Shown here piece by piece: positions 10,366 through 44,459 of a DNA stretch of 64,000 nt (the stretch's first letter is position 1; every line of letters starts with the position of its first letter). The translations under genes and the position numbers were made by a program. The notes below the pieces were generated by a model that was not told the DNA's origin, ran no database searches, and was given only the letters and a program-made list of their open reading frames with translations. This DNA comes from Sulfuriferula sp. (GTDB lineage Bacteria > Pseudomonadota > Gammaproteobacteria > Burkholderiales > Sulfuriferulaceae), in the NCBI GenBank assembly GCA_041651255.1, contig JBAZJP010000005.1, positions 24,405 to 88,404 of the forward strand, read 5' to 3'.

Positions 10366-10417
10366 GTTGTGTTGTTAACCTAATCTGATGGCAGATCCCA
10401 AACGCATTGACATTGGT

Positions 10418-11215: not shown

Positions 11216-11359
11216 TTTCAGTATTCGTTAAATTTAAATTGGAAGTTGTGCTATGAATAGAGTTAATGTTGAATTACTCGGCAAAGTTATAGGGATATTA
11301 CTAATAATCTGCCTTCCTCGTGTGCGCGAGAATGGCAGGTTATCAGTCATACACAAATA

Positions 11360-17349: not shown

Positions 17350-18255
17350 TCAAGTCGTGCTCTCCAGCATCCATTGCAACGTATCTCTTAATGGGATGTT
17401 CGGCACATTACCAATAGCTCCATCCAGTTTTCCACGAGAACCAATGAGCCGGTGTACTTCATTGGATCGGACAAAAGCAGGATTCACCCGGATTTCTGGA
17501 TCGTGGTTAGTGAGTTCACGCATTATTGCCAATACCTCAAGCAATGAATACCCATGACCTGAGCACACATTGTAAGCTTCACCCGAAGGCGTAGCCTCCA
17601 GTAACAAACGGTAACTTCTGGCGACTGAACGCACATCGGAAAAATCCCTCACCACATTGAGATTACCCAGTTCCAGTACGGGCAGTCGGCGGTTAAAGTG
17701 ATCAACAATTTTAGGAAGTAAAAAGTCTAACGACTGTCCGGCACCCGTGTAATTGAATGGGCGTGTCAGCGTAATAGGTAAACGATCCAGCCACAAGCGC
17801 GCCATATACTCCATCGCCAGCTTACTTACGGCATAGTCATTGGCGGGTGCGGCGGGAGTGTCTTCCGTGATAGGTTCCACAGTTGCATTGCCATAGATAT
17901 TGGCGCTACTGGCTAATAGTATTGAACTCGGCTTGTGTGTGCTCTTGCTTAGCGCCTCAAGTAAATTGCGCGTGCCGACCAGATTGGTGCGATATATGGT
18001 ATCTACATCCCCGTGCGCGACAAAGGCAATGCCAGCGAGGTGTATGACGTAATTTGCCTGAGATTCCTCCACTATACGTGTTAAACCTGTTTGATCGCTT
18101 AGGTTACAAACTAATGTGGCTGTTATATAAGGGGATGGTTTGGCCGGTGCGCGATGCGTTAGTCCGAATACTTCATAACCCGCATCATGCATTTCTGCTG
18201 CCATATAGTGACCAGTGAAGCCATTGGAACCTGTAATCAAAACGCGTTTTTTCAT
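17350..18255 (-). CDS. rmd: GDP-4-keto-6-deoxy-D-mannose reductase (Rmd-like extended SDR)
   Basis: TGSNGFTG, HLAGIAFV, YAVSK (YxxxK), RPFNYTG, GNL-x-VVRDFSDV. Located next to gmd. Confidence 0.7.
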   Translation of the reverse strand: MKKRVLITGSNGFTGHYMAAEMHDAGYEVFGLTHRAPAKPSPYITATLVCNLSDQTGLTRIVEESQANYVIHLAGIAFVAHGDVDTIYRTNLVGTRNLLEALSKSTHKPSSILLASSANIYGNATVEPITEDTPAAPANDYAVSKLAMEYMARLWLDRLPITLTRPFNYTGAGQSLDFLLPKIVDHFNRRLPVLELGNLNVVRDFSDVRSVARSYRLLLEATPSGEAYNVCSGHGYSLLEVLAIMRELTNHDPEIRVNPAFVRSNEVHRLIGSRGKLDGAIGNVPNIPLRDTLQWMLESTT

Positions 18256-18282
18256 TGGGATATTGTCATTATATTAAACGGG

Positions 18283-19815
18283 TCATGAGATGCGAGGTCG
18301 AATGCAGACAGAATGTACGCTCACATCGACTTCGGCAGTCACCCATATTCGCACAGCTAAATCATTGACGTCTTCAGTAAGATCAAAAGGTAGCGTTATT
18401 GATAACACAGTATTGGTGTCATCAGTTTTAATTTCGCGCCAAGGAATAAATTGACTATCATTAGCCCAAGCAACATCCATTGTTACACCACCATCACAAC
18501 CTATTTCTTGGAAACCATTAACCTTGACCTCATACTGTCCAGCCGTTAATGGGGAATAAGGGCCGAGCAGCAAAAAACCTTCTCGCCCTGTACTCACTAT
18601 TTCGCCATCTCGCCAGCATCCTACTCCTGTTCTAAAGCGTACATCAGCCCCTGTATAACATTGCGCAGCTGATTGATCTGTTATGTCCAATTCTATTATA
18701 TAAGGTGTGAAACCAATTTTATCAAACCAAATGCTATTTCCCTGCACAGGAAGTAACATTAACTGGTACTGCCCCGGCGTATCCGGCGTCACAATACGCA
18801 TTTGTAAGTGAAGTGTGTGTAAATGTGGAATTGTACCAATTGGCAGCGGGGTGCGCTCACCATCAAAGACTACTGGTTCACCTGCTTGATCTAACCAGTG
18901 ATAGGAAAGTTCGATTGGAAGATGAGCATGACTTATCCAAGGTTCTGGAGAAGAGTTGTGAAGTTGTATTGGCAGCATGAATTCAACATTTAAACCCATA
19001 GTATTCAGTATTGCATCTGTCCACAGCGTACCCGCTGCGACTACAACGGCATCTCGGTCATAAGGTACCCATACGGCTACCTCCGGAGTGGCTACGGTCG
19101 GTTTCTGAATCTGCTGTTGTTGCCAGCGTTCGCGCAGGATGCGGTAAAACTCAATATCCAGTGCGTTCAGTTCTTCCAGACGCTGACGTAACAATGGTGA
19201 TAGTTCGTCCACGGCTTGCCGAGCGTGAGTGACGTTGACGGGTTGAAGCCGTTTTGGAGGGGCCAGCCCAATTAACTTAGCAATGTCTGCCAGAAAGACC
19301 GGCATTTCTTCAAACAGGCCCCAGACGTCATATGCTTCAATAGCGCGTAATGCATCGTTTAGCTTTTCTGCATTGTCACGCGGTTTAGAGCTGAATATAC
19401 TGGAAAAGTGTTCTACATACGGATTGTTAATGTGTCCAATTAAATTCGGGACTGACGTCTCTCCATTGGTAATGATGAACTGTTCTGTTTGCACCCATAA
19501 ATCTTGGAGCTCTTGTGCTGTGTGATTGTTTAGTACAAAATAAAGCCATGATACCGCTCGGTCTATTGGTTCACGCAAACAGGTTATGTATTGGTAGCGA
19601 GGATCTAGTCCTTTGCCATTAAAACCGATATGTGCAGAAATTACCGAATACTCACCACCATAACGACTGATCAGATCCTGATGATTTCCAATCAAATTTT
19701 CAGTGACACAACTGCCGCCCAAGGCATTGGTCAGCCAGGCATTAACTGCCTGGCCAGCAGTTTTCGCTAAATGGTCGAAGATGATGCGCCCGTTAAAGGC
19801 GTGTCTCTTAGGCAT
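18283..19815 (-). CDS. Sulfotransferase-fold protein with two C-terminal beta-sandwich modules
   Basis: 5'-PSB-like DHLAKTAG, 3'-PB-like TCLREPIDRAVSW, N-x-LD-x-EFY. C-terminal modules WLD..GERTPLP..PGQY..VQ..WFD and GFLLLGPY..L-x-AGQY. Confidence 0.7.
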   Translation of the reverse strand: MPKRHAFNGRIIFDHLAKTAGQAVNAWLTNALGGSCVTENLIGNHQDLISRYGGEYSVISAHIGFNGKGLDPRYQYITCLREPIDRAVSWLYFVLNNHTAQELQDLWVQTEQFIITNGETSVPNLIGHINNPYVEHFSSIFSSKPRDNAEKLNDALRAIEAYDVWGLFEEMPVFLADIAKLIGLAPPKRLQPVNVTHARQAVDELSPLLRQRLEELNALDIEFYRILRERWQQQQIQKPTVATPEVAVWVPYDRDAVVVAAGTLWTDAILNTMGLNVEFMLPIQLHNSSPEPWISHAHLPIELSYHWLDQAGEPVVFDGERTPLPIGTIPHLHTLHLQMRIVTPDTPGQYQLMLLPVQGNSIWFDKIGFTPYIIELDITDQSAAQCYTGADVRFRTGVGCWRDGEIVSTGREGFLLLGPYSPLTAGQYEVKVNGFQEIGCDGGVTMDVAWANDSQFIPWREIKTDDTNTVLSITLPFDLTEDVNDLAVRIWVTAEVDVSVHSVCIRPRIS

Positions 19816-20852
19816 TAAAACGACAGTCCCGTTTCGTTACGACGTATGTCTGCTTCTACCATCATCTGACAAAGTTGTTCCAGCGTGGTTTTAGGCTCCC
19901 AGCCTAGTTCGAGCTTGGCTTTTTCTGGATTACCGATGAGTAACTCAACCTCAGCAGGGCGGTAAAATTTTGGATTGACGCGTACCAGTGTTTTGCCTGT
20001 ATTTCGGTCTATGCCAATTTCATTTTCAGCGGTGCCTTGCCATACTAAATCAAATCCAACTGCCTTACCTGCCATGGTCACAAAATCACGCACCGTTTCA
20101 GTACGATTGGTAGCTAATATATAAGTTTCAGGTTTCTCGACTTGCAGCATTAGCCACATGCCTTCCACGTATTCTTTCGCAAAGCCCCAGTCACGTTTAG
20201 CATCCATGTTGCCAAGCTCAAGTACATCCTGCTTGCCCATCTTGATTTTTGCCATACTGTCGGTGATTTTACGGGTCACAAATTCCAGTCCACGTAATGG
20301 TGATTCATGGTTAAACAGAATGCCGCTGGTTGCGAAAATATTGTAACTTTCGCGGTAATTGATCGTCATCCAGTGGGCGTAGAGCTTAGCTACACCATAA
20401 GGGCTGCGTGGATGGAAAGGGGTAGTTTCTATTTGGGGTATAGCCTGTACTTTGCCGAACATTTCTGACGTGCTTGCCTGGTAATAACGAATCGCAGGAT
20501 TCACAATCCGAATCGCTTCCAGTAAATTCAATGGACCCAAGCCCGTGATTTCAGCAGTAGTGCGAGGTTGGTCAAACGACACCGCGACAAAGCTTTGTGC
20601 CGCAAGGTTGTAGACTTCAGTTGCACCAGTGGTCTGTAATAAACGGATGCTGGAACCTAAATCAGTTAAGTCGTATTCCACTAAGTGCATGTTCGGGTGA
20701 TTATTAACGCCCAACTCTTCCATGCGCCAGAAATTAACCGAGCTGGTGCGACGATATGTGCCATAAACTGTGTAACCTTTTTCCAAAAGCAATTCGGCTA
20801 GATAAGCGCCATCTTGACCCGTGATACCAGTGATTACTGCTGTTTTAGTCAT
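19815..20852 (-). CDS. gmd: GDP-mannose 4,6-dehydratase
   Basis: [54 protein letters not shown]. Confidence 0.97.
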
Positions 20853-27476: not shown

Positions 27477-28735
27477 TATAAATTAGGAATTTTTTGGGGG
27501 GCTACACCCACTGATGGGGATGGATAACATAATGCTTGTGTTAATGCCAAGCAAGATACTTGCCATGTGAGCTCGGTTGGTTGTTGTATGTATTTATTTT
27601 CGCTTTTGAATCGCTTTAGCCATTGAGGGAGGAGAGTGGTTAGGTCATGATCGGATGCCGAGTGGAAAAAACTAACGTTTTTACTGGCAATTTCACGGAA
27701 CACAGATAGGTCACGAGCCAGGACAGGCTTGCGGAAATAAGCGGCTTCTATCAATGGTAAGCCGTAACCTTCGCCTTTGGAGGTGATGAGCACGCCCAGG
27801 CATTGCCGGTAGAGGGCGCTCAGCAGATTATCCTCCACATCATTTAACCAAATCAACCGTTTGCCTGTTTCTGCATGGGTTCGCAGGCGGTGGCTGAGTT
27901 CTTCTATGTCCCATCCTTGCTTGCCAACGATGATTAGGCGGGTTGAATCGCCTGTTGCCCAGAGTGATTCGAACGCATCAAGTGCATCATCATAGCCTTT
28001 GCGTGGCTCGATGGTGCCGACCATAAGAATAAAGTCGTGCTCTGCTAAGTGTCGCGGTAATGGTGTAATGGACGCGTTGTTATCCAGCTCTGCACCTAAA
28101 GGAATTGTGGCGCAGGGTATTTCAGTTGTGGATAGCTGATAGTGCTTTTGCATCCAGTCGTGAAAATCGGCCTGTACAGTGCGTGAGATCGCAATGGTGT
28201 TATCGGCGAGTAGGGCAATGGCACGCAACCAGCGATGGAAATTCCGGCTGGCTCTGGGGGTGAACCATTCCGGATGCAATACGGGCAAAAGGTCATAGAT
28301 CACAATGCTGATACGTGTACCTTGCAGCTTCCAGTTCCATAGCTGTTCAAGGTGATGTGGAATCAGGTGCGCAGAAAGATCCAGCCCTAAAAAAATATCA
28401 CCTGCATTAACCTGAATCGGTAAGGTCGGGGCTGTCGCTGGTTGTTGTAAAAAATCAGTGGGCAGATAGCGGTAAGGCTGGGTACGCGAGGCCGCAACAG
28501 GACAGATGCGGTAACCCGCTGGCGGAGCTGCGAGTAATGCCTTGTACAGGTTGCGTACTACACGTTGGATACCGGTTTTTGCGTCGATTTTTGCAATGGC
28601 AGAAACGTCGATTAATAATTGTTTTTCTGCAGTGTCATGCGAGGTGTCGTGGGTTACGTGTGTTAGTCTTTTGCGCCAGAATGACACTGGTAAATACGTG
28701 AGTGCAATATGGTGGAGTAATCGTAGTGCGCGCAT
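27476..28735 (-). CDS. GT4 glycosyltransferase (WbpX/WbdA C-domain-like)
   Basis: LLIDVS..DAKTGIQRVV, YDLLP, VGTIEPRKG, EGYGLPLIEA. Confidence 0.88.
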   Translation of the reverse strand: MRALRLLHHIALTYLPVSFWRKRLTHVTHDTSHDTAEKQLLIDVSAIAKIDAKTGIQRVVRNLYKALLAAPPAGYRICPVAASRTQPYRYLPTDFLQQPATAPTLPIQVNAGDIFLGLDLSAHLIPHHLEQLWNWKLQGTRISIVIYDLLPVLHPEWFTPRASRNFHRWLRAIALLADNTIAISRTVQADFHDWMQKHYQLSTTEIPCATIPLGAELDNNASITPLPRHLAEHDFILMVGTIEPRKGYDDALDAFESLWATGDSTRLIIVGKQGWDIEELSHRLRTHAETGKRLIWLNDVEDNLLSALYRQCLGVLITSKGEGYGLPLIEAAYFRKPVLARDLSVFREIASKNVSFFHSASDHDLTTLLPQWLKRFKSENKYIQQPTELTWQVSCLALTQALCYPSPSVGVAPQKIPNL

Positions 28736-29397
28736 TATCCAATCTCAGCGGCGTGCTCGTTGTAATACACGAATGCTTCATCAAGATCATCAAACGCAGT
28801 CATTTTTCCTTTAACTAAGACTGCTGCGCGCTGGCAGTGTTGGCGGATGTAGTTTGGGTCGTGGGATACGATGATCATGGCACGATCGTTGCGTTTTTCG
28901 AATAGCTCAACACGGCATTTTTCGTGGAAACGATGATCGCCCACGGCAATGATTTCATCGATTAAAAAGCAATCAAATTCCACCACCATGGAGATAGCGA
29001 ACGCCAGTCGTGCTCGCATCCCTGATGAGTACGTTTTAACGGGTTCTCTAAGATATTTTCCTAGTTCAGAGAACTCTTGTACGAAAGGGATCTTGTCTTC
29101 GGTCGAGGTGTCGTAAATGCGGCAAATGAAGCGTAAATTATCCAGACCAGTCAGGCTGCCTTGAAATGCACCACCAAACGCCAACGGCCAGGATACACTC
29201 ATTCCTCGGGTGATACTGCCGCTAGTTGGGCGCTCAGCCCCGCTGATGAGGCGGATGAGCGTGGATTTGCCCGAGCCATTGCGCCCGAGTATACCAACTT
29301 TCTCACCTGGGGCTATTTGCAGGTTGATATTATCCAGTACAGTGCTGACACCGCTGCGAGTATGGTAGCGTTTGACGAGGTTGCTAATTTGTATCAT
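28735..29397 (-). CDS. wzt: Capsule ABC transporter ATPase KpsT/Wzt, short form without C-terminal carbohydrate-binding domain
   Basis: GRNGSGKST Walker A, YSSGM signature, FLIDE Walker B, VSH. Preferred start ATG 29397 (MIQISNLV), in ATGA overlap with the wzm stop; the ORF track starts at 29457. Confidence 0.93.
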
Positions 29398-30185
29398 TCG
29401 GGTATGACCGTTCTGGATATGATACGAACTTGCGAAAGCCCCAGCAAGGTAAGGCATAAATTGATAATCGCCATGTAACTCATGTCGTAATGCGCGTGGA
29501 CCATAGACCCGAAATAGCCTTCGCGCAGTATCTCGACACCATGCACCATAGGCAACAATAGGACGAATTTTTGCCCTGTGGTGGGTAGCCAGTCAACCAT
29601 GAATGCGGCACCAGATAGTGGAAATAAGAGATATGAGGCAGGGTGCCAGAGTTTCTCAATAATTTCGCTGCGCTCACTTAAAGCGCCTATCCACAATGCA
29701 AGTGCCGAGCCAAACCAGGCTAGCATGAACCAGCCAAACATGATTTTGAGTATATCTTCGGGTGGTTTAATCCAGCCTATCGAGGTGAAGACTATCCCTA
29801 ACATAATAAATGAAGCGGTAGTGCCAGCAATTTCAAGGATTAGTCGAGAAGCAAAAATGTCGATCACTTTGACATGACGGTGATACATCAAGGCCAGGTT
29901 AGGTTCAATGGCCTTGCTGCAGCGGTTAGGCATGTTGCGCCATAGTAAAACAGATGAGTAACCGGTGAGCGCAAATGCGGCAATAGGGATGTTGGTAAAG
30001 TGATGTCCGCCAGCCATAGTCCACAGCACGGTGACACCCAAGGTAAAGAGCATGGGTTCAACGAATAGCCATAAAAAACCAATATTATGACGACCATAGC
30101 GGGTGATGACTTCGCGCATCAATAGCGCGCCAATGACGCGGAATTGTATTTGTAAGGATCGGCGCAAGCTGGGTGTTGTATTCAT
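29394..30185 (-). CDS. wzm: Capsule ABC transporter permease KpsM/Wzm
   Basis: [26 protein letters not shown], multiple TM segments, P-x-VHG-x-E-x2-R. Confidence 0.93.
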
Positions 30186-30197
30186 CGATGGATCTCT

Positions 30198-31349
30198 TTA
30201 ATCCTGATGTTCGCGTATACCTGCGAATAACATGGTCAGCACACCCCAGACTATCATGCCAAGTATGAAAGTGGCGATGATGCTGCGTATGCGTCGTGGT
30301 TCCATTGCTTTATCTGGTTTGCTTGGTTGCACAATACGCTCCAGGTAAAACTGTTTGCGCTGAGCCTCGTTGCGTGCCTGTTCGAGCGACGCAAAAGCAG
30401 TAGCGAGTTGTTTATCTGCGAACATGCTTTCCAACTTGAGACGCTCATAGTCAGCAGCTTTGTTGGACAGGGAGTTGCCCGCGCCTGCGACTTTGGCAGT
30501 CTCGGTAGCAATGTCGGCTTCCAATGAGGCTACATGGCGTCTCAAAGCTGGTATTTGCGGGTTGTCGCGGGTGAGGCTTATTATCTGGCTGAGTTGATTT
30601 TTGGTGGAAATCAAATCGTCTTGCAGCTTGGAAATGAGTTGTAGTTGTAATGCGGATTGGCCAGTAGGGTCGAATATGCTTTTCTGATCACGGTAACGCG
30701 ATACGGCCAGAGCGGCGGCTTTGGCTTTTTGTTCGGCGGTAGCAACCTCTGCAGCAGCAAAGCGTATCATGTCCTGGCGACCACGTTCATTAAGTTGGTT
30801 GACAAGCTTTTCGCTCATTTCCAGCAGGCTTGCATTGATATGGTAAGCATCTTCGCTGGTAAACGCTTTAACGGTGAGCGTGGAGATGGATGACGCAGTA
30901 TCTGCATCGACGGTTACGTGTTTTTCATAATAACGCAACAGTGCTTCAAAGCTGGTGTCCCAGCCTAACCCACCGAAGCGGCTAAATATATCAATTTTGT
31001 TGCTGCTGTAAGCTTGACCGAGTTTGTATTGGTTCTCTAGCTGTTGCAGTGCGTCACGTGAAAGGATGAAGTCATGTACAGCAAAGCTGTCATCTTGTGC
31101 ACGTGAGAACCCCGCACCTTGCAGCAATGCACCCAAGCCCGAAGCGCTTTGTTTATCAGGGCTACGCACCACAAAACGTGATTCAGAGATATAAACGTCG
31201 GAAGCGATAAGGCCGAAATAGAGGATGGATAACAGCGTGGGAATGGCGACAGTAAACAGAAATAAGCGATTTATGCCCTTAATGCGCTGGATTAAATTGG
31301 GCTTGGTGTGCTGGATGTCGTTTGCTGCTGTGATTGTTGCGTTATCCAA
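30198..31349 (-). CDS. wcbD: Capsule export inner-membrane adaptor KpsE/WcbD/BexC
   Basis: N- and C-terminal TM helices, YISESRFVVRS, LSRDAL, EQARNEAQRKQFYL, P-x-KPD-x3-EP-x-R. TTG start with AGGAA RBS. Confidence 0.92.
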   Translation of the reverse strand: MDNATITAANDIQHTKPNLIQRIKGINRLFLFTVAIPTLLSILYFGLIASDVYISESRFVVRSPDKQSASGLGALLQGAGFSRAQDDSFAVHDFILSRDALQQLENQYKLGQAYSSNKIDIFSRFGGLGWDTSFEALLRYYEKHVTVDADTASSISTLTVKAFTSEDAYHINASLLEMSEKLVNQLNERGRQDMIRFAAAEVATAEQKAKAAALAVSRYRDQKSIFDPTGQSALQLQLISKLQDDLISTKNQLSQIISLTRDNPQIPALRRHVASLEADIATETAKVAGAGNSLSNKAADYERLKLESMFADKQLATAFASLEQARNEAQRKQFYLERIVQPSKPDKAMEPRRIRSIIATFILGMIVWGVLTMLFAGIREHQD

Positions 31350-31466: not shown

Positions 31467-33089
31467 TCAGTCTGGCTCAGAGGATGTCTGGGCTCCTGCA
31501 TTGTTGGGTTCGACAATAATATGGATAACTGTAGGTTTAAAGTCGTTACTCATGACGTCAAACCAGCCGATTGTTTCTTGAACTAGTGTTAAAGTCAGAG
31601 CGTAATGACCCGGCAAGGCGGGTGCGTTAATAAGCATCGATGTGGTGGCTGTCTGACCAGCGCGGATGCCGCCATGTGGCAGGGCAGAGCGTTCTCCTTC
31701 TAATATGGTATTGCCATTTTGAGCCCAGCGAAAAGCTATGTTGACTGGGCGGTAAACATCGCCTACCCAATGCTGTTTACCACAGTTCGCAATCACCACT
31801 TCTACAGTCATGGTCTGGTTGCATTGCATTGCTGGGATTGAATCGGTTGTAAAGATGCTGCCTTGAGGAGCTGCGATAATGCGGGCATCATCAGCATCAT
31901 GTGTGGGTAGCAAAGACAGTTCAGTTGGCAAATAAGCGTATCCGGCAAATTGTTGTTCAATAAGGCGGCGCACATGGAATTCACAGGCAACATCGCTCCA
32001 GGCCAATTCATTGATGCCTTCGGCTAAGCGCTCCGTGAAAGAAAACCCGGCGGTATATCGACCTGTTGGTAAATCCGCAATCAGGTAATAGCGTGCAGAG
32101 TATGAACCTGTTTCCACATTTTCATGGATTTGTTTAAGTAATATATTGTTTGTGCCGAATGCCCAGCGTTTCTCGTCATCGAAGATATGTATCCCCATCC
32201 CAAGTCCGGTTATATCTCGGCTCAGGAAGAAATCCACGGTAAATGTCATGACCTGGCCGTATTCAATAACAGCTCCATCTTGCAGTTCTGCCTTACTGAT
32301 GATCAGGTCAGGGGTGGTAAGCAGGCGGTTTCCACTCTGGCGTTCATATTTTTGCCATTGCGGCAAAGTCAGTTGTGGTGGGATAACGACCCGTTGCCAA
32401 GACGCCACTGTCTTATACAGTTGTAAATCAAGCTGATTGAGTTCGATGAGCCGCTTTTTCAATCCTTTTTTGATTTTTGACAGGCTTGGGCGTGCCGGTG
32501 TGACCCTGTGCCTGGCGACTTCGCTGGTTGGTGGGCTGCCAATTAGCTTGCCAAACTCATAGATGAAAGCAAGCATGTCTTCCTGCAACCCTATCAGGTC
32601 GTATTGGGCAAGTACTTTCAGGCAATGTGCTACGGAGAGCCGATTTTCCGTATTGTCTGTTGCCCCAATGCGAGAAAAGTGATTGACATAAAGGTTGGAA
32701 ATATTTGGTATCAGATCGTTATCCAGTTCCTGCCCATCGCTTTCCAGTAGTCGGGAAACTGACTGATATAACTTGGTATCCTGTTGGTTTTTGTATTCAT
32801 CCAGTACATAATAAAGCCAGGAAACGGCGCGATCTATAGGGTCACGCAGGCAGGTGACATAGGTGTAGCGAGGATCCAGCATATCACCCATATCGAAATC
32901 CATATGAGCACTGATGACGGAATATGTGCCACCGTATTGGGAAATAAGCTTGCGATGCAACCCATTGACTTGAGGCGAGACGCAGCCAGTTCCCAGCACG
33001 CTTGTCAGCCACGTAGCAGTTGCTGTACCCGCAGTTTTAGGCAGGTGGTCAAATAGTATTCGTCCTGGAAATGCCAGTGTTTTGTTCAT
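31467..33089 (-). CDS. Sulfotransferase-fold protein fused to a Wzt C-terminal-like domain and a second beta-sandwich
   Basis: DHLPKTAGT, TCLRDPIDRAVSW. Middle domain VIEYGQVMTFTVDF..GIHIFDD..AFGTNN..LPTGRY..EFHV. Last module FRW..GERSALP..PGHY..VQE..WFD. Confidence 0.75.
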   Translation of the reverse strand: MNKTLAFPGRILFDHLPKTAGTATATWLTSVLGTGCVSPQVNGLHRKLISQYGGTYSVISAHMDFDMGDMLDPRYTYVTCLRDPIDRAVSWLYYVLDEYKNQQDTKLYQSVSRLLESDGQELDNDLIPNISNLYVNHFSRIGATDNTENRLSVAHCLKVLAQYDLIGLQEDMLAFIYEFGKLIGSPPTSEVARHRVTPARPSLSKIKKGLKKRLIELNQLDLQLYKTVASWQRVVIPPQLTLPQWQKYERQSGNRLLTTPDLIISKAELQDGAVIEYGQVMTFTVDFFLSRDITGLGMGIHIFDDEKRWAFGTNNILLKQIHENVETGSYSARYYLIADLPTGRYTAGFSFTERLAEGINELAWSDVACEFHVRRLIEQQFAGYAYLPTELSLLPTHDADDARIIAAPQGSIFTTDSIPAMQCNQTMTVEVVIANCGKQHWVGDVYRPVNIAFRWAQNGNTILEGERSALPHGGIRAGQTATTSMLINAPALPGHYALTLTLVQETIGWFDVMSNDFKPTVIHIIVEPNNAGAQTSSEPD

Positions 33090-37610: not shown

Positions 37611-38239
37611 TGCTCTTTACGGAAAATTCTGGCCGGATGGCCGAGTGCTGTAGTTGAAGAAGGGATGTCGGAAATCACGACCCCGCCGGCGCCTATCATT
37701 GTGTTGTCACCAATCGTTATATCCGGAATCACAGTGGTGCTGATACCGAGAAATGCTCTCTGACCCACGGTTACATTGCCGGCAAGTGCGCACTGCGGTG
37801 CTATGTGAGCACAGAACCCAATGCGGCAATCGTGGTCGACAGTAGCACCTGTGTTGATGATCGCCAGGTCTTCGATATGGCTTTCAGCGTTGATTATTGC
37901 GCCACTCATGATTGCTATGCCTTTGCCTAGCACGACGGACGGGGAAATGATTGCAAATGGGCTGATGGCATTGACAAGTTCGAATCCGAGGGTTACAGCG
38001 TGGGCAGTTGCGCGCTCGCGGATGCGGTTTGACCCGATGGCAGGAAAGAGCAGGCTATTTCCGGCTTCACGCAGCTTAATTAGCTGTTCATCTCCCTGTA
38101 GAACGGGTACGTCCAGACATGTAGCAGGGCTGTCTTCGCCACCGACACAGTAGTTAACCTGATAACCCGCTGCGCGTAGTATCTCAATGACGACTTTGGC
38201 ATGACCGCCCCCACCTAAAACGACCACGGAATTTTTCAT
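37607..38239 (-). CDS. Sugar N-acetyltransferase, PerB/PglD/NeuD family (left-handed beta-helix)
   Basis: LGGGGHAKV, AIG-x-N-x2-R, hexapeptide repeats, VDHDC, G-x-PAR. Preferred start ATG 38239 with AGGAGG RBS and ATGA overlap. Confidence 0.88.
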   Translation of the reverse strand: MKNSVVVLGGGGHAKVVIEILRAAGYQVNYCVGGEDSPATCLDVPVLQGDEQLIKLREAGNSLLFPAIGSNRIRERATAHAVTLGFELVNAISPFAIISPSVVLGKGIAIMSGAIINAESHIEDLAIINTGATVDHDCRIGFCAHIAPQCALAGNVTVGQRAFLGISTTVIPDITIGDNTMIGAGGVVISDIPSSTTALGHPARIFRKEQ

Positions 38240-41103
38240 TGCGAACCTCCTGCTTTTGTCCAAACTGGCGATTGCCGCCGCGCAAAAAACAGATTTATTG
38301 ATTCGATGGCGTCCAGCTCATCAATGGAAATGTTGCGTAATGCGCCGCTATCAGGGTGAATTGCTTGGTATTCAAGACCGAGTTGGCTAAATCGCTCCAG
38401 CCAGTCTTGCGATGTGATATTGGTCCGTTTCAAGTGGGAGTTGCCAAATTCTGCAATGATAGCGATGTCTTTATTCTGCTTTATCAGTGATTCAGCCCCA
38501 GCCAATACTTCAAGCTCGGCACCTTCTGCATCAATTTTAATGAGGTGCGCAAATGGCGCGTTTGCCATGATTTGATCTATTGTTGTGGTGCGCACGGTAA
38601 CTGGTTCGATGTCTATTCTGGATGCTTCGTCGAGCGGGAAGAGAGAATGGTGGCCGCTGGTTGCACCTAGATACAAGGTGCGTTCACGCTGTTCGTCAGA
38701 TGCGGCAATGCAGTGTATTTCAACCATATTTTTAAAACCATTCATCCAGATGGTTTTTTCCAGTAGGCGTGCTGTCGGAGGGTAAGGTTCGAATGCAATC
38801 ACACGTCCTTGTCCACGCATGCTCTTCGCAGCCGCAAGGGTGTGCATCCCAACATTTGCACCCACATCAATAAAGATGTCGCCTGGGCTGAGAATATGCT
38901 GAATCAAATGTCGTGTGCCTGGTTCCAGTTCGCCGCTTTCGATGAGTGCTGCAATCAGGGCATGATCTTCACTAGCGCATAAAACATAGCCGACACTGGT
39001 TCTTACCATGAGGGCATCCGTTCCGAAAGGAACGGCTACACGGCGAGCAGCAGTCAGCCCATAAAGCTCAATGCGACCAAGCTGAGGATTCAGTTGATCT
39101 AATTGTAGGTGCAGCTGTTCCTGAGCAGTTATGGACTCAGCCAGTTGAGCCAGGATGGTGGTGTTATCTTCTTTCAGTGTTTGCGGTAGCGAAACATTCA
39201 AGTATTCAGCGACTTGCTGTACACGGTAGGTCATGTCAGCCTGGATGTTGGATAGTGTCGCTAACATCTCGCTTGTATGCTTATGCACGTCGTTGGATAC
39301 GGTTGAGCTTTCTTTGCTGATTAAGGCTGCAGTGTTAACTGCATGTTGGCCTAGTTGCAGGCGCAACTGTTCCTGAGCAGTTATGGACTCAGCCAGTTGA
39401 GCCAGGATGGTGGTGTTATCTTCCTTCAGTGTTTGCGGAAGCGAAACATTCAAGTATTCAGCGACCTGTTGTACACGGTTGGTCATGTCAGCCTGGATGT
39501 TGGATAGTGTCGCTAACATCTCGTTTGTAAGCTTATGCACGTCGTTGGATACGGTAGAACTTTCTTTACTGATTAAAGCTGCAGTGTTAACTGCATGTTG
39601 ACTTAGTTGTAGGCGTAGCTGTTCCTGAGCTTGATCTCCCAATATAAGCCGTGCCAGGATTGTCGTTTTGATCTCGTCAATGGATTGTGGTAAAGATGTA
39701 TTTAGTTGCTCAGCAGCTTCCTGTGCCTGGCGGGTTAGGTCTGCTTGCGTCTTAATTAGCGCAGTTTGTACGCTATGAGAAAAGTTGTTTATTTCGTGCA
39801 ACAAGGTTGTATGCTCTTGGCCAATCAAGGATGCTGTCTCATAGGCGAGCTTGTCTAGTTGTTGATGAAGCCGCTTTTGTGCTGTTTCAGCTTTCAAGAG
39901 AGACGCTAATATTGTTGCTTTGATATCCTCAGCTGTTTGTGGCAACGATGCACTTAATTGCGAAGTCGCTTCTTGCACCAGGCGGGCAAGGTTCATTTGA
40001 GTTTTAGTTAGCGCTGTTTGCGCATCGTTTGCAACTTTGCTAATTCTGTAAGATAAGGCTGCGTGCTCTTGATCAATCAAAGTCGTTGTTTCTTTGCTGA
40101 GCTTGTCGACTTGTTGCGCCAGAGTCAATGTTGCGGTTTGCCCATCTTTGAGTTCTGCTCTGATTGTCGCGACATCGGATTGTTGTTGTGAATTAATTCG
40201 TTGTATTGATAGCTCTATGCCTTGCAAGCGTTGACGGCTATCTGCGACTGCTGAGGGTAGTGTAAGTGTATCGATTGCCCATTTGATAAAGGGCATATTT
40301 CTTAGTTTGTGTAGCCAGGATGCCGCTGTTAACCCCGCCACTCGATTCGAGATAACTCTATCCCTGTTGGATGTTTTGATCTCGGAGAGGATGGAGAGTT
40401 TGCTGCGGCCATTTCTTAGTTGTGTCAAATAATGTTCGAAGTTCTGTTGGTCTGGCAAGCGACCGAGAACCGATTGAAATGCATGATTAATAAACTGGAC
40501 ATCATCATAAACAAGTAATTCGTTTAGATGGACGCGTGAAATTGCGCAGATTAATTCAATTAACCACCCAAGAACAGGCACGCGTCGATATTTTAGTAGC
40601 AGGTATGTCCAGCGCAGTTTTTTATACCACTTTTTGGCAATTTCAGTTTCTCCAGAGGCCGCTAGCTGTCCCAGAATTTGGATGCGAGAGATGCCGTCAT
40701 TTAATCGTTGATTAAAATAATGCAATCCAGTCGGGTCTGGTGTTCTATCTAGTATTTCTAAGTAAGCAGCGTTGATAAATTTTTCACCGTCTAATGACAA
40801 TAGGCGCGGTAGTCTGATGTGTATTTGCGAAGTGGGGTCAAACAATGGGCTGGTTGATGTCTGCTCGTGACTCAAGTCATGAGTTGTAATTTTTTCGGGT
40901 TGTGATTGGGGTTCGCAAGGGGAGGCGTTTTCTTTAACTTGAGGATTGTGCGGGCAACTAAGTGCGTTGATGGCTGGGCTGCGCATCTGATGATTGAGAA
41001 TATCTCCCATGCTTGGATCATGTATCGTCATCTTTTTTGGTCGGGATGTGCGATTGTGAATGCTGTCGTTATTCATTTTGTCAAGGGTTGAGGGATGTTT
41101 CAC
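38236..41103 (-). CDS. FkbM-family methyltransferase with two N-terminal DUF4214-like modules and a 4x84-aa helical repeat stalk
   Basis: C-terminal IDVGANVG, AFEP, IKIDAEGAELEVL-x-G. Two F-x3-(Y/F)-x3-L-x-R-x-PD modules. Start codon uncertain. Confidence 0.85.
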   Translation of the reverse strand: MKHPSTLDKMNNDSIHNRTSRPKKMTIHDPSMGDILNHQMRSPAINALSCPHNPQVKENASPCEPQSQPEKITTHDLSHEQTSTSPLFDPTSQIHIRLPRLLSLDGEKFINAAYLEILDRTPDPTGLHYFNQRLNDGISRIQILGQLAASGETEIAKKWYKKLRWTYLLLKYRRVPVLGWLIELICAISRVHLNELLVYDDVQFINHAFQSVLGRLPDQQNFEHYLTQLRNGRSKLSILSEIKTSNRDRVISNRVAGLTAASWLHKLRNMPFIKWAIDTLTLPSAVADSRQRLQGIELSIQRINSQQQSDVATIRAELKDGQTATLTLAQQVDKLSKETTTLIDQEHAALSYRISKVANDAQTALTKTQMNLARLVQEATSQLSASLPQTAEDIKATILASLLKAETAQKRLHQQLDKLAYETASLIGQEHTTLLHEINNFSHSVQTALIKTQADLTRQAQEAAEQLNTSLPQSIDEIKTTILARLILGDQAQEQLRLQLSQHAVNTAALISKESSTVSNDVHKLTNEMLATLSNIQADMTNRVQQVAEYLNVSLPQTLKEDNTTILAQLAESITAQEQLRLQLGQHAVNTAALISKESSTVSNDVHKHTSEMLATLSNIQADMTYRVQQVAEYLNVSLPQTLKEDNTTILAQLAESITAQEQLHLQLDQLNPQLGRIELYGLTAARRVAVPFGTDALMVRTSVGYVLCASEDHALIAALIESGELEPGTRHLIQHILSPGDIFIDVGANVGMHTLAAAKSMRGQGRVIAFEPYPPTARLLEKTIWMNGFKNMVEIHCIAASDEQRERTLYLGATSGHHSLFPLDEASRIDIEPVTVRTTTIDQIMANAPFAHLIKIDAEGAELEVLAGAESLIKQNKDIAIIAEFGNSHLKRTNITSQDWLERFSQLGLEYQAIHPDSGALRNISIDELDAIESINLFFARRQSPVWTKAGGSQ
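39121..40128. repeat. Intragenic tandem repeat, 4 x 252 bp (84 aa)
   Basis: ctgagcagttatggactcagccag occurs at 39121 and 39373 (252 bp apart). Two near-identical units are preceded in the protein by two diverged units of exactly 84 aa, each containing SLPQ and ending AQ. Confidence 0.92.
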
Positions 41104-42253: not shown

Positions 42254-43405
42254 ATGAAAATCTTAATAGATGTTACTCGTTTGGTGAGTCGTTTTATGGA
42301 CGGGCGTTTGCCAACTGGGGTAGATAGAGTCGGGCTGGCGTATGTGCGGCATTATGGTGTGCGAGCGCAGGCAGTGGTGCGTTGGGCGGGGCGGCTGTGG
42401 GTGTTGCCACGTGTGCAATCAGCGGCGTTGTTTGCCTGGTTGGCGAATCCTGTTGACTCACGTGGTGCGGTGTGGATTATTACGCGTGGCATTATGGCGG
42501 GTGGCTGGCTACAGGATGTGGCAGGGAGTATTTTGCTGAATACCGGGCACACGGGTTTGCATGAGAGTGCGTATGTGACCATGCTGTGTAAATTGGGTGT
42601 GCACCCTGTGTTTTTGGTGCATGATCTGATCCCGATTACTCACCCGGAATATTGCCGCGCGGGTGAGGATGAGAAGCATCGGCGGCGTATGCAGCATGTG
42701 CTGACCTTGGGGTGCGGTGTGGTGGCGATTTCGCAAGCTACATTGAATGATTTGAGTCAGTTTGCCGCGCAGTTACAGTTACCTATGCCGCCTGCAGTGG
42801 TCGGGTTGTTAGCACCTGGTCCTGCTCATTGTGTGGCAAGTACGCGCCCAGTGGCCGAACCATATTTTGTAGTATTGAGCACCATAGAACCACGTAAAAA
42901 TCATGTGCTGTTATTACAGGTGTGGCGGCGTCTGGTTGAGCAATATGGCGAACACGCGCCGCGCTTGGTGGTGATAGGGCAGCGTGGTTGGGAGTGTGAG
43001 AATGTGGTGGATTTGCTGGAGCGCTGTGCTGTGCTTAAGGGGGTTGTGATTGAGCTGGCAGATTGCTCGGATGCAGTATTGGTGAATTATTTGCATCATG
43101 CTCAGGCCCTGTTGTTTCCTTCTTTTGTTGAGGGTTATGGTATGCCGCTGGTTGAGGCGTTGGCGTTGGGTCTGCCGGTGATTGCCAGTGATTTGGAAGT
43201 GTTTCATGAGATTGCTGCGGATATTCCTGAATATATTGATCCGCTGGATGGGCTGCGCTGGGCGGAACGGGTGATGGATTACGCACAGCCGAATAGCGAA
43301 TCACGCGCAGCGCAGTTGCAGCGTATATCGCATTTCAAGACGCCAGCTTGGGCGGATCATTTTGCCAAGGTTGATGCTCTGTTAGAGGTTGTCGGAAATG
43401 CCTAA
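42254..43405 (+). CDS. wcbB: GT4 glycosyltransferase, WcbB-like
   Basis: IDVTRL..PTGVDRV, HDLIP-x-THPEY, TIEPRKNH, EGYGMPLVEA. Directly upstream of the kpsC-like gene, as in wcb loci. Confidence 0.8.
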   Translation: MKILIDVTRLVSRFMDGRLPTGVDRVGLAYVRHYGVRAQAVVRWAGRLWVLPRVQSAALFAWLANPVDSRGAVWIITRGIMAGGWLQDVAGSILLNTGHTGLHESAYVTMLCKLGVHPVFLVHDLIPITHPEYCRAGEDEKHRRRMQHVLTLGCGVVAISQATLNDLSQFAAQLQLPMPPAVVGLLAPGPAHCVASTRPVAEPYFVVLSTIEPRKNHVLLLQVWRRLVEQYGEHAPRLVVIGQRGWECENVVDLLERCAVLKGVVIELADCSDAVLVNYLHHAQALLFPSFVEGYGMPLVEALALGLPVIASDLEVFHEIAADIPEYIDPLDGLRWAERVMDYAQPNSESRAAQLQRISHFKTPAWADHFAKVDALLEVVGNA

Positions 43406-44459
43406 GCAAAAAGATTTAACTATGCAGCATATTATTAATGCTGAAGTGCTGGGAATTTATCAGTTTCCCTACTGGAAACATCCTGTGGTGAAGCAGTGTT
43501 TCCCTGCATTTCGGGTGGTATTTATTGAATCCATAGATAAATTGCCGGTGGGTGCGATCCTGGTGTTGTGGGGGATGCGTCCTGTACCAGAGGGCGTGAC
43601 TAAAGATGTGCAGGTTTGGCGAATGGAAGATGGCTTTCTGCGCTCCGTAGGTTTGGGTGCGGATTTGATACGCCCGATGTCGTGGATAGTCGATCAGCAA
43701 GGTATTTACTATGATGCGACGCGGGTATCGGATTTGGAACAGCTATTGGCGCAGACACAGTTTGATGAGGCTCTGCTAGCCAGAGCTGCTGATTTGCGCG
43801 CACGCGTAGTAGCGACTGGGCTGACAAAATATAATGTAGGTGCAGGAAAATGGCAGCGACTTGCGAATGCGGCACGAGTGATCCTGGTGCCCGGGCAGGT
43901 GGAGAGTGACGCATCGTTGGCGTTTGGCGCGCCTGGTGAGCGCACCAATATAGGATTGTTGCAGGCAGTACGGTCTGCGCATCCCGATGCGTATGTGGTG
44001 TATAAGCCACACCCCGATGTTTATGCGCGATTGCGTGCTGAGGGTCAGAATGAGCAGAGTGCCTATCGCTGGTGCGATGAGGTGGTGACCGATGTGGCTA
44101 TGGGGGATTTGCTCACCATGGTTGATGAAGTGCATGTGATTACGTCTTTGGCAGGCTTTGAGGCGCTGTTGCGTGGTAAACCCGTGACTTGCTACGGCCA
44201 GCCATTCTATGCTGGCTGGGGTTTGACGCAGGATGTGATGCCGATAGCTCGGCGTAGTCGACGTTTGAGTTTAGACGAGTTAGTGGCGGCAGTGTTGATT
44301 TTGTATCCGCTGTATTTGAGCCGTGATGGTAAGCATTTGATTACGCCAGAACAGGCATTAAATGAGCTATCTGTTTGGCTGGCACATACCGGTGGTCGTG
44401 TAACCATATGGCGTAAGTTTATCAGGATGTTTCTGCGGCAGATTATTGGCGTGCGTTAA
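43398..44459 (+). CDS. kpsC: KpsC/WcbA-family beta-Kdo transferase, single-domain (about half length)
   Basis: EDGFLRSVGLGA, GIYYDAT, PGQVESDAS, YKPHPDV, SLAGFEALLRG, PFYAGWGLT-x-D. Start ATG 43398 with AGAGG RBS. Confidence 0.85.
   Translation: MPKQKDLTMQHIINAEVLGIYQFPYWKHPVVKQCFPAFRVVFIESIDKLPVGAILVLWGMRPVPEGVTKDVQVWRMEDGFLRSVGLGADLIRPMSWIVDQQGIYYDATRVSDLEQLLAQTQFDEALLARAADLRARVVATGLTKYNVGAGKWQRLANAARVILVPGQVESDASLAFGAPGERTNIGLLQAVRSAHPDAYVVYKPHPDVYARLRAEGQNEQSAYRWCDEVVTDVAMGDLLTMVDEVHVITSLAGFEALLRGKPVTCYGQPFYAGWGLTQDVMPIARRSRRLSLDELVAAVLILYPLYLSRDGKHLITPEQALNELSVWLAHTGGRVTIWRKFIRMFLRQIIGVR

What the first reader, a model, noticed from the sequence alone, without database searches (positions are those of the whole stretch)
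31467..33089. Wzt C-terminal glycan-recognition domain relocated from the ABC ATPase to a sulfotransferase
Seen: the ATPase (28735-29397) is only about 220 aa with no C-terminal domain. The gene just upstream of kpsE-M-T carries a Wzt_C-like domain (about 31965-32330) between a sulfotransferase fold and another beta-sandwich. Established: in ABC-dependent O-antigen export the Wzt C-domain binds the capped chain end and gates export; capsule KpsT lacks it. Inference: a capping enzyme that carries its own cap-reader and may dock on KpsMT in trans, coupling terminal sulfation to export in a capsule-type transporter.
Basis: partly seen in the sequence, partly recalled or inferred. Interest (0 to 1): 0.78.

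Follow-up and report, generated by a model that had tools for sequence, protein, structure and literature searches.

The report
Capsule sulfotransferase with Wzt-type glycan-binding domain
A gene beside a capsule export pump encodes a sulfate-adding enzyme fused to a sugar-chain-end-binding domain normally found on O-antigen pumps; it belongs to a widespread, uncharacterised enzyme family, and the domain most likely guides the enzyme to its sugar chain and is not a detached part of the pump.

Summary
ORF 31467-33089 (-) encodes a 540-aa protein with three domains:
- an intact PAPS-type sulfotransferase head;
- a true Wzt_C carbohydrate-binding domain, supported by Pfam above its cut-off, a sequence match to the Aquifex Wzt CBD, and fold matches to three solved Wzt CBDs;
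- an Ig-like beta-sandwich with no curated family, here called 'modA'.

Directly downstream lie kpsE, kpsM and a 220-aa kpsT that has no extra domain.

The interpretation that the domain was relocated from the ATPase and docks on KpsMT is only partly supported.
- This CBM subfamily has about 160 clusters at 50% identity. Nearly all members sit on sulfotransferase-like heads, and only 2 of 137 sit on ATPases.
- In O-antigen-type loci the fusion directly follows wzm-wzt. That Wzt carries its own CBM in 9 loci and lacks one in 3.
- ST-borne CBMs group apart from the neighbouring ATPase CBMs in a tree.
- Kps loci also hold paralogous sulfotransferases without this domain.
- Published work indicates that KpsMT recognises the lipid-Kdo end of its substrate.

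In Kps loci the conserved block is an FkbM methyltransferase stalk protein, a multi-GT polymerase, the ST-CBM and gmd/rmd. The best reading is therefore a CBM-guided sulfotransferase that acts at or near the chain end of a D-rhamnan-like capsule. It is a new variant of a known kind, and its function is untested.

The parts
31467..33089 (-). ST1: 540-aa sulfotransferase, Wzt_C CBM and modA fusion protein (P0001)
   Evidence: ORF; Pfam; AF2 model with mean pLDDT 86.8; more than 160 homologues
32394..33089 (-). Sulfotransferase head, residues 1-232
   Evidence: Sulfotransfer_2 scores 24.9 bits against a cut-off of 22. In 39 homologues the 5'-PSB-like HLPKTAGT motif (K18, T19, G21: 38 of 39, the other row a gap) and the 3'-PB-like RDPxxRxxS motif (R82, P84, R87, S90: 39 of 39) are conserved, as is H137 in 39 of 39. 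Homologue P0097 is fused to an APS kinase.
31902..32324 (-). Wzt_C-type carbohydrate-binding domain, residues 256-396
   Evidence: PF14524 E 5.4e-12; phmmer hit to the Aquifex Wzt CBD at E 7e-7; Foldseek TM 0.64-0.76 to 8dky, 5hno and 2r5o. W364 aligns with the Aquifex cap-lid W362 and is kept in 36 of 39 homologues.
31506..31883 (-). 'modA': second beta-sandwich, residues 403-528, with no curated family
   Evidence: DSSP strands at 410-527. No significant Pfam or PDB sequence match. Shared with paralogue ST2. W441, W455, R467 and W509 are invariant in 39 homologues.
30198..31349 (-). kpsE (BexC/CtrB/KpsE family)
   Evidence: TIGR01010 E 1.8e-117. No terminator-like site in the 117-bp gap to ST1.
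29394..30185 (-). kpsM (ABC-2 permease)
   Evidence: ABC2_membrane; best NCBIfam match is KpsM NF050053
28735..29397 (-). kpsT, 220 aa, with no C-terminal domain
   Evidence: ABC_tran only. Best PDB match is KpsT 8tsi at E 8e-59, with the alignment starting at M21.
38236..41103 (-). 955-aa DUF4214 x2 / repeat stalk / FkbM methyltransferase, the recurrent partner of the ST-CBM family
   Evidence: Pfam. FkbM proteins lie within 10 kb of the ST-CBM in 21 of 47 related loci and are fused to it in P0227.
18283..19815 (-). ST2: paralogous sulfotransferase with modA but no Wzt_C
   Evidence: BLASTP: heads 39% identical; modA of P0001 (374-532) aligns to ST2 229-384; no Wzt_C
17350..20852 (-). rmd (17350-18255) and gmd (19815-20852), which supply GDP-D-rhamnose
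   Evidence: Pfam. gmd lies within 10 kb of the ST-CBM in 10 of 25 Kps-clade loci.

Best explanation
ST1 is a cytoplasmic, PAPS-dependent polysaccharide sulfotransferase of a large capsule locus. That locus combines KpsMTE/KpsD/KpsC/KpsS export and priming with a wcb-like lipid module. Its two beta-sandwich modules, a Wzt_C-type CBM and 'modA', are appended targeting modules. The Wzt_C pocket probably binds the non-reducing end of the nascent lipid-linked polymer, as it does in Wzt. The polymer is probably rich in D-rhamnose or perosamine and possibly methyl-capped. This binding would hold the catalytic head at or near the chain end. ST1 belongs to a conserved biosynthetic block made of an FkbM methyltransferase stalk protein, a multi-GT polymerase, the ST-CBM and gmd/rmd. 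It works with that block and not as a subunit of the exporter. Shown here: domain identities, intact PAPS motifs, family distribution and gene contexts. Inferred: glycan binding by the CBM, chain-end specificity, and independence from KpsT.
For: Domain identity comes from Pfam, PDB sequence and fold matches. The sulfotransferase motifs are conserved in all or all but one of 39 homologues, and one homologue is fused to an APS kinase. The genome encodes APS kinase. Positions equivalent to the Aquifex cap pocket are conserved across homologues that are only 32-51% identical to P0001: H301 in 30 of 39, G348 in 37, E353 in 37, and the Trp lid W364 in 36. This CBM subfamily sits almost only on sulfotransferase-like heads. 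Of 137 representatives, 89 carry this head and 33 carry a second head with GxDKTGST and RxPxSxxxS motifs. One is Wzt_C-DUF7024-Sulfotransfer_3, and only 2 are ATPases. Accessory modules are shuffled between members: ST2 has modA without Wzt_C, other members have Wzt_C without modA, and some have extra C-terminal domains. The conserved order in Kps loci is FkbM/DUF4214 protein, multi-GT4 polymerase, ST-CBM, gmd. KpsMT needs no cap reader according to published work. A CBM on a chain-modifying terminator has one published precedent, where it was read as substrate recruitment (PMC11231755).
Against: No binding or activity data exist for any member of this family. In the window ST1 is immediately upstream of kpsE with no terminator between them. 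In three O-antigen-type loci the ST-CBM follows a CBM-less Wzt. Both facts fit an exporter-linked role as well. Wzt CBDs can work in trans in E. coli O9a (cited in PMC9445017). The Aquifex binding pocket is completed by the NBD hinge helix, so a Wzt_C domain alone may bind weakly.
Confidence: 0.6

Rival explanations
1. ST1 adds a terminal sulfate cap, reads it with its own Wzt_C domain and docks on KpsT/KpsM in trans. Only capped chains would then be exported, so the CBM functionally replaces the C-domain that KpsT lacks.
For: ST1 abuts kpsE-M-T with no terminator. Loci L019, L030 and L031 have the order wzm, short wzt, ST-CBM. The O9a CBD works in trans. This is the only Wzt_C domain in the genome.
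Against: Nine loci have the ST-CBM behind Wzt proteins that keep their own CBM. ST-borne CBMs and neighbouring ATPase CBMs lie on opposite sides of a branch with support 94. In other Kps loci the gene is 2.5-7.5 kb from kpsEMT and often on the opposite strand. Kps loci exist with ST-modA enzymes but no Wzt_C (L026; the window's ST2). KpsMT has low polymer specificity and recognises the Kdo-glycolipid. The residue that bridges CBD and NBD in Aquifex (H355) is not conserved; the equivalent position E357 is variable.
Confidence: 0.1
2. Two-step chain-end module. The FkbM stalk methyltransferase caps the chain. The Wzt_C domain of ST1 reads that methylated end, or the un-capped end, and the head sulfates the terminal or sub-terminal sugar. 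Methyl plus sulfate would then form a WbdD-like terminating modification that sets chain length, while export by KpsMT stays cap-independent.
For: An FkbM methyltransferase lies within 10 kb in 12 of 25 Kps-clade loci and 9 of 22 other loci, often adjacent. Direct fusions exist: ST-Wzt_C-modA-FkbM (P0227) and ST-Wzt_C-Methyltransf_25 (L052). The ST-CBM sits in the slot directly after wzt in O-antigen-type loci. The closest solved CBD binds a 3-O-methyl D-Man or D-Rha cap of a D-rhamnan, and gmd/rmd are linked to the family.
Against: ST1 has no coiled-coil ruler of its own. The position of the sulfate is unknown. Published sulfated Kps-type capsules exist (e.g. Cobetia marina, PMC11766843), and the passages read there give no indication of a sulfate cap. 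Several pocket residues differ from the methyl-binding pocket of Aquifex: L300 to H, T346 to G, H350 to T.
Confidence: 0.22
3. The Wzt_C domain has lost glycan binding and serves only as a dimerisation or scaffold module, through the C-terminal strand exchange seen in Wzt CBD dimers.
For: Wzt CBDs are strand-swapped dimers. The segment that aligns to the C-terminal end of the Aquifex CBD (FAGYAYLPTE, with G383, L387 and P388) is among the best conserved parts.
Against: Pocket-equivalent residues, including the Trp lid, are also conserved. The domain travels together with a second sandwich rich in tryptophan and arginine, on several different sulfotransferase heads. That pattern is typical of targeting modules.
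Confidence: 0.08

Closest known systems
Wzt C-terminal carbohydrate-binding domain of O-antigen ABC transporters (A. aeolicus 6o14/8dky/8dku; E. coli O9a 2r5o; R. terrigena O12 5hno)
   Same: Same Pfam family and same jelly-roll fold. The closest solved sequence is the Aquifex CBD. The Trp that lids the cap pocket and the C-terminal strand motif are conserved.
   Different: The domain is attached to a sulfotransferase and not to an ABC nucleotide-binding domain. It is followed by another sandwich. Several pocket residues differ. It belongs to a separate subfamily that is almost never found on ATPases.
WbdD (E. coli O9a/O8) and K. pneumoniae O7 ORF6 chain terminators
   Same: These are cytoplasmic enzymes that modify the glycan in ABC-transporter-dependent assembly. 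Relatives of ST1 sit in the same slot after wzm-wzt and are fused or adjacent to methyltransferases. O7 ORF6 is the one published terminator with a predicted CBM.
   Different: The chemistry is sulfotransfer and not kinase/methyltransferase. ST1 has no coiled-coil ruler. The CBM in O7 ORF6 is described as Ig-like, not Wzt_C. A terminating role for ST1 is not shown.
Sulfated Kps-type capsule loci (e.g. Cobetia marina KMM 1449, PMC11766843) and rhizobial polysaccharide sulfotransferases (from my own knowledge: M. loti KpsS, S. meliloti LpsS)
   Same: Loci that combine kpsDMTE and kpsSC with a wcb lipid operon, GDP-mannose-derived sugars and sulfotransferases.
   Different: The passages read describe no Wzt_C or other CBM on those sulfotransferases. 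In Cobetia the PAPS genes are inside the locus, whereas here they lie elsewhere in the genome.
KpsMT-KpsE capsule exporter (8tsi and related entries, PMC11041684)
   Same: The window's KpsT, KpsM and KpsE are clear homologues.
   Different: No accessory cap-reading subunit is known for this exporter, and none is required by the published model.

Membership tests
Wzt_C carbohydrate-binding domain (PF14524) | Profile match above the curated cut-off | tested here: met
   46.3 bits against 30.4, E 5.4e-12, residues 264-385
Wzt_C carbohydrate-binding domain (PF14524) | Beta-sandwich (jelly-roll) fold of solved Wzt CBDs | tested here: met
   Foldseek TM (normalised to target) 0.76 for 8dky, 0.69 for 5hno and 0.64-0.67 for 2r5o. 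Model pLDDT is 83-94 per 10-residue block over residues 261-370 and lower at the domain's edges.
Wzt_C carbohydrate-binding domain (PF14524) | C-terminal fusion to the Wzt nucleotide-binding domain | tested here: not met
   The domain follows a sulfotransferase head. The window's ATPase has no such domain.
Wzt_C carbohydrate-binding domain (PF14524) | Pocket that binds the non-reducing terminal cap | tested here: inconclusive
   The Trp lid is conserved (W364, 36 of 39 homologues). Other pocket positions are conserved within the family but differ from Aquifex. There are no binding data.
Wzt_C carbohydrate-binding domain (PF14524) | Strand-swapped dimer that contacts the NBD | not testable with these tools
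   Only monomer prediction is available. The motif that aligns to the C-terminal end of the Aquifex CBD is conserved.
PAPS-dependent sulfotransferase (Sulfotransfer_2) | Profile match above the cut-off | tested here: met
   24.9 bits against 22, a marginal pass, residues 11-226
PAPS-dependent sulfotransferase (Sulfotransfer_2) | 5'-phosphosulfate and 3'-phosphate binding motifs and a candidate catalytic His | tested here: met
   HLPKTAGT (K18 in 38 of 39), RDPIDRAVS (R82 and S90 in 39 of 39) and H137 in 39 of 39. The assignment of motif roles rests on my own knowledge of the fold.
PAPS-dependent sulfotransferase (Sulfotransfer_2) | PAPS supply in the organism | tested here: met
   Two APS-kinase matches elsewhere in the genome. 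Homologue P0097 is fused to an APS kinase.
WbdD-like chain terminator | Coiled-coil molecular ruler in the same protein | tested here: not met
   There are no long helices after residue 232 in the model. The stalk is in the separate FkbM protein.
WbdD-like chain terminator | Gene position next to wzm-wzt and a transporter CBM that needs the cap | tested here: inconclusive
   Met in relatives (L034, L037, L039-41, L045, L047, L048, L052). Not met in the window, which has KpsT and no CBM.
WbdD-like chain terminator | Modification of the non-reducing terminal sugar that stops polymerisation | not testable with these tools
   This needs the polymer structure and mutants.
Kps (group 2/3-like) ABC capsule export system | KpsT, KpsM, KpsE, an OPX protein (KpsD-like) and KpsC/KpsS present | tested here: met
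   KpsT against 8tsi E 8e-59. KpsE TIGR01010 E 1.8e-117 and KpsM NF050053 E 7e-27, both below the equivalog cut-offs. Poly_export/SLBB at 11360-12550 and Capsule_synth at 43389-44459 and 53339-54604.

The most novel reading that the evidence does not exclude
The Wzt_C-modA cassette is a portable chain-end reader for sulfotransferases. Together with the FkbM stalk methyltransferase it would install a composite methyl/sulfate end-modification on D-rhamnan-like polymers. This would be a sulfate-based counterpart of the WbdD methyl-phosphate cap, used in both Wzm/Wzt and KpsMT pathways. In loci whose ATPase lacks a CBM, including this one, the enzyme-borne reader could also hand finished chains to the exporter.
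Probability: 0.2. Interest if true: 0.75.

Novelty: new variant of a known kind. Interest (0 to 1): 0.5.

Why it matters
Chain-end capping and cap reading are the quality-control logic of ABC-transporter-dependent O-antigen assembly. So far the reader domain has been characterised only on the transporter, and the 2024 study read here states that no terminator other than K. pneumoniae O7 ORF6 has a CBM. This work defines a sizeable family spanning several phyla, about 160 clusters at 50% identity, in which a Wzt-type reader sits on sulfotransferases. The family is locked into a conserved block of methyltransferase, polymerase and sulfotransferase, and it occurs in both capsule-type and O-antigen-type loci. 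If the CBM binds chain ends, it offers a simple handle for two open questions: whether sulfate is a chain-end signal in bacteria, and how capsule (Kps) systems that have no reader on the pump control modification and length. If it only recruits substrate, it is an ordinary enzyme-plus-CBM design, and the 'relocated cap reader' idea should be dropped.

Tried and rejected
1. A recent copy of a neighbouring Wzt CBM was rejected. In the tree, ATPase CBMs and ST-borne CBMs lie on opposite sides of a branch with support 94, and the window sits in a starred 26-row clade made only of ST-borne CBMs. The ATPase sample is small (17 sequences from two lineages), so the deep origin remains open.

2. The rule that the fusion co-occurs only with short ATPases was rejected.

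3. modA could not be assigned to a curated family. Pfam gives only sub-threshold hits (N_BRCA1_IG E 0.035, NPCBM_assoc E 0.17), and there is no PDB sequence hit.

4. hhalign of the second N-terminal head (GxDKTGST) against this sulfotransferase head gave no significant match (probability 3%). Its sulfotransferase nature rests on motifs only.

5. The Mann, Kimber and Whitfield 2019 Glycobiology census of terminators and CBMs is not held, so I could not check whether it already lists sulfotransferase-CBM fusions. Full-text searches for Wzt plus sulfotransferase found nothing relevant.

6. The organism could not be named, because cluster look-ups carry no names.

8. The first FkbM co-occurrence test, with the full-length protein at E below 1e-20, found one locus. 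A domain-level iterative search corrected this to 21 of 47 loci, with 7 of 8 confirmed by Pfam.
Full report
**1. What is there**

The minus-strand ORF 31467-33089 is open and encodes 540 aa.

- Pfam gives Wzt_C (PF14524) at residues 264-385, with E 5.4e-12 and 46.3 bits against a cut-off of 30.4. It gives Sulfotransfer_2 at residues 11-226, with 24.9 bits against a cut-off of 22.
- A sequence search of the PDB hits only the carbohydrate-binding domain (CBD) of the Aquifex aeolicus O-antigen transporter Wzt (6o14, 8dky, 7k2t, 8dku), at E 7e-7 over residues 278-392.
- An AlphaFold2 model built on 39 homologues has mean pLDDT 86.8 and pTM 0.55. It shows three well-folded domains with flexible joints: an alpha/beta head (1-232), a beta-sandwich (256-396) and a second beta-sandwich (410-527).
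- By Foldseek the first sandwich matches the three solved Wzt CBDs: 8dky TM 0.76, 5hno 0.69, 2r5o 0.64-0.67.
- Directly downstream on the same strand are kpsE (TIGR01010, E 1.8e-117), kpsM and an ATPase with only an ABC_tran domain. The best solved relative of that ATPase is the capsule KpsT (8tsi, E 8e-59). The alignment begins at M21, so the protein has 220 aa (28735-29397).
- The genome (2.9 Mb, 54 contigs) has no other Wzt_C domain.

**2. The enzyme head looks active**

- The sequence HLPKTAGT (residues 15-22) and RDPIDRAVS (82-90) fit the 5'-phosphosulfate and 3'-phosphate binding motifs of PAPS-dependent sulfotransferases. The assignment of those roles rests on my own knowledge of the fold.
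- K18, T19 and G21 are kept in 38 of 39 homologues, the remaining row being a gap. R82, P84, R87, S90 and H137 are kept in all 39.
- One homologue (P0097) is fused to an adenylyl-sulfate kinase.
- The window's genome has two APS-kinase matches outside the locus.

**3. The locus**

The window holds a capsule locus of about 55 kb. It contains:

- a WcbR-like PKS, an OPX (KpsD-like) protein, many GT4 and GT2 genes, a phosphomannomutase, gmd and rmd;
- a perosamine-synthase-like aminotransferase with a NeuD-type acetyltransferase;
- a 955-aa DUF4214 / repeat stalk / FkbM methyltransferase;
- a half-length KpsC, KpsS, and a second sulfotransferase.

The second sulfotransferase (18283-19815) is 39% identical to ST1 in the head and shares the C-terminal sandwich 'modA'. 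It has no Wzt_C. modA matches no curated family. Three Trp and one Arg in it are invariant across homologues, which fits a glycan-binding module. That reading is an inference.

**4. The family**

- The protein has more than 160 relatives at 90% clustering, in Paraburkholderia, Burkholderia, Comamonas, Duganella, Methylobacter, Gallionella and many MAGs. Where named, NCBI calls them 'Wzt carbohydrate-binding domain-containing protein' or 'sulfotransferase family 2 domain-containing protein'. No functional paper was found.
- A search with the CBM alone against 1.84 billion representatives found only 161 proteins at E 0.001 or better.
- Of 137 that I classified, 89 carry this sulfotransferase head. 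Another 33 carry a different N-terminal head of about 340 aa, with GxDKTGST and RxPxSxxxS motifs and no Pfam match. I read that head as a second sulfotransferase-like head from the motifs alone, because hhalign found no link to the first.
- Only 2 of the 137 are ABC ATPases.
- Other architectures include Wzt_C-DUF7024-Sulfotransfer_3 (P0222) and ST-Wzt_C-modA-FkbM (P0227, 1251 aa).

This Wzt_C subfamily is therefore essentially a sulfotransferase accessory module, usually in tandem with modA.

**5. Contexts of 56 genomic loci**

*The clade that holds the window.* In the CBM tree it has 26 rows and support 99.

- Thirteen of its 25 loci have a Kps or wcb marker (KpsD, KpsE, KpsM, KpsT, KpsC, KpsS or the PKS) within 10 kb. 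KpsT there is always 217-240 aa.
- The recurrent order is kpsEMT, GT4, FkbM/DUF4214 stalk protein, large multi-GT4 polymerase, ST-CBM, gmd (and rmd).
- In L009 the polymerase and FkbM are one 1806-aa protein that ends 84 bp before the ST-CBM.
- The ST-CBM is usually 2.5-7.5 kb from kpsEMT and often on the other strand. The direct adjacency in the window is not conserved.

*More distant members in O-antigen-type loci.* Here the gene directly follows wzm-wzt.

- In eight alphaproteobacterial loci, mostly Rhizomicrobium MAGs, the order is two Wzt proteins and then the ST-CBM. Pfam checks on L034 and L037 showed that each Wzt has its own Wzt_C. In L037 a wzm precedes them and a methyltransferase follows.
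- In L052 the order is wzm, Wzt with Wzt_C, ST-Wzt_C-methyltransferase.
- In L019, L030 and L031 the order is wzm, a short Wzt without CBM, then one to three ST-CBM genes. FkbM follows in L030 and L031.

FkbM methyltransferases lie within 10 kb in 12 of 25 loci of the first group and 9 of 22 of the second. Pfam confirmed 7 of 8 checked.

In the CBM tree the 17 neighbouring ATPase CBMs lie on one side of a branch (support 94) and all ST-borne CBMs on the other.

**6.

These points are supported:

- The domain is real.
- The family is linked to ABC-dependent glycan assembly.
- It sits where chain-end modifying enzymes sit.
- It is coupled to methyltransferases.

These points argue against 'relocated from the ATPase and docking on KpsMT in trans':

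- The fusion co-exists with CBM-bearing Wzt in 9 loci, so there it does not replace the transporter's reader.
- The ST-borne CBMs are an old, separate lineage.
- KpsT-type ATPases have no CBM whether or not an ST-CBM is present, so a short KpsT carries no information.
- Kps loci also use sulfotransferases without the domain (ST2 here; two ST-modA genes in L026).
- Linkage to kpsEMT is loose in the relatives.
- KpsMT is reported to have limited specificity for the polymer and to recognise the conserved Kdo-glycolipid (PMC11041684).
- In Aquifex the full O-antigen pocket needs Tyr233 of the NBD hinge helix, and His355 of the CBD bridges to the NBD (PMC9445017). The position equivalent to His355 is variable in this family (E357).

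These points keep the model alive:

- The three loci with a short Wzt.
- The in-trans activity of the O9a CBD (cited).
- The adjacency to kpsE in the window, with no terminator-like site in the 117-bp gap.

**7. Most likely mechanism**

I read ST1 as a CBM-guided sulfotransferase.

- Mapping the Aquifex cap pocket through the alignment gives these pairs: Aquifex L300, T346, A348, H350 and the W362 lid correspond to P0001 H301, G348, S350, T352 and W364.
- H301 (30 of 39), G348 (37 of 39), E353 (37 of 39) and W364 (36 of 39) are conserved among homologues that share only 32-51% identity with P0001. That suggests a common ligand in the same pocket.
- Solved Wzt CBDs bind non-reducing terminal residues. 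The nearest one binds the 3-O-methyl-D-Man or D-Rha cap of a D-rhamnan.
- The family travels with gmd/rmd and with FkbM methyltransferases.

The simplest model is that the CBM holds the enzyme on the growing or finished chain end of a D-rhamnose-type polymer, and the head sulfates the terminal or nearby sugars. This model cannot say whether sulfate is a true terminating cap (rival 2, 0.22) or a decoration. One published terminator, K. pneumoniae O7 ORF6, has a predicted CBM. Its authors read it as possible substrate recruitment and state that no other terminator has one (PMC11231755).

**8. Novelty and score**

The architecture is already visible in public annotation, but I found no characterised member. 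It is a new variant of two known kinds: a polysaccharide sulfotransferase and a Wzt-type CBM. It is not a new category.

Interest is moderate, at 0.5. The export-coupling idea that motivated the original high score is weakened. The family-level picture is still worth testing: a reader domain on the modifying enzyme, a conserved methyltransferase-polymerase-sulfotransferase block in both Kps and Wzm/Wzt loci, and sulfate as a possible chain-end chemistry.

Earlier notes of this scan report sulfotransferases next to Wzm/Wzt in many other genomes. They are AI leads that point the same way, and I do not count them as evidence.

Noticed in passing
window 38236-41103 and loci L003, L005, L006, L008, L010, L018, L023, L036: Large FkbM methyltransferase proteins with DUF4214 modules and long spacers recur in Kps-type loci beside the ST-CBM. 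The domain order differs between them: FkbM is N-terminal and DUF4214 C-terminal in the three relatives checked by Pfam (L003, L005, L008), and the reverse holds in the window.
   Followed up: partly
L009:4479-9899: An 1806-aa single protein carries three GT4 modules and a C-terminal FkbM methyltransferase, a polymerase-terminator style fusion. It ends 84 bp before the ST-CBM gene, in a locus with KpsD, KpsC and KpsS.
   Followed up: partly
P0127, P0129, P0138, P0160 and about 30 other representatives: A second N-terminal head of about 340 aa has 'GxDKTGST' and 'RxPxSxxxS' motifs and no Pfam family. It carries the same Wzt_C-modA cassette and is probably an undescribed sulfotransferase-like family.
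   Followed up: partly
P0227 (1251 aa); L052:9983-12160; P0097 (617 aa); P0222 (738 aa): Rosetta-stone fusions of the ST-CBM: with two FkbM domains (P0227), with a class-I methyltransferase (L052) and with an APS kinase (P0097). P0222 is a separate architecture, Wzt_C-DUF7024-Sulfotransfer_3.
   Followed up: partly
L034, L037, L039, L040, L041, L045, L047, L048 (mostly Rhizomicrobium MAGs): Two tandem Wzt ATPase genes lie ahead of the ST-CBM. Each was shown by Pfam to carry its own Wzt_C domain in L034 and L037. The two CBMs fall in different clades, so one locus holds three distinct Wzt_C domains.
   Followed up: partly
L030:8262-14099: Three tandem paralogues of ST-Wzt_C-modA lie directly behind wzm and a CBM-less wzt, followed by an FkbM methyltransferase and a GT4.
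   Followed up: partly
L027 (Deefgea sp.) 156-1586 and 10001-11601: kpsM and kpsT appear as one 476-aa open frame, and the ST-CBM homologue is split into three ORFs, so it is probably a pseudogene.
   Followed up: no
L031:9294-9926 and P0222: A DUF7024 domain appears as a separate small protein between wzt and the ST-CBM in L031, and fused to Wzt_C in P0222. It may be another accessory module of these systems.
   Followed up: no
window 29394-29457: The longest kpsT ORF starts at 29457 and would overlap kpsM by 64 bases. Homology to solved KpsT begins at M21 (29397), which gives a 4-base overlap with the kpsM stop.
   Followed up: yes
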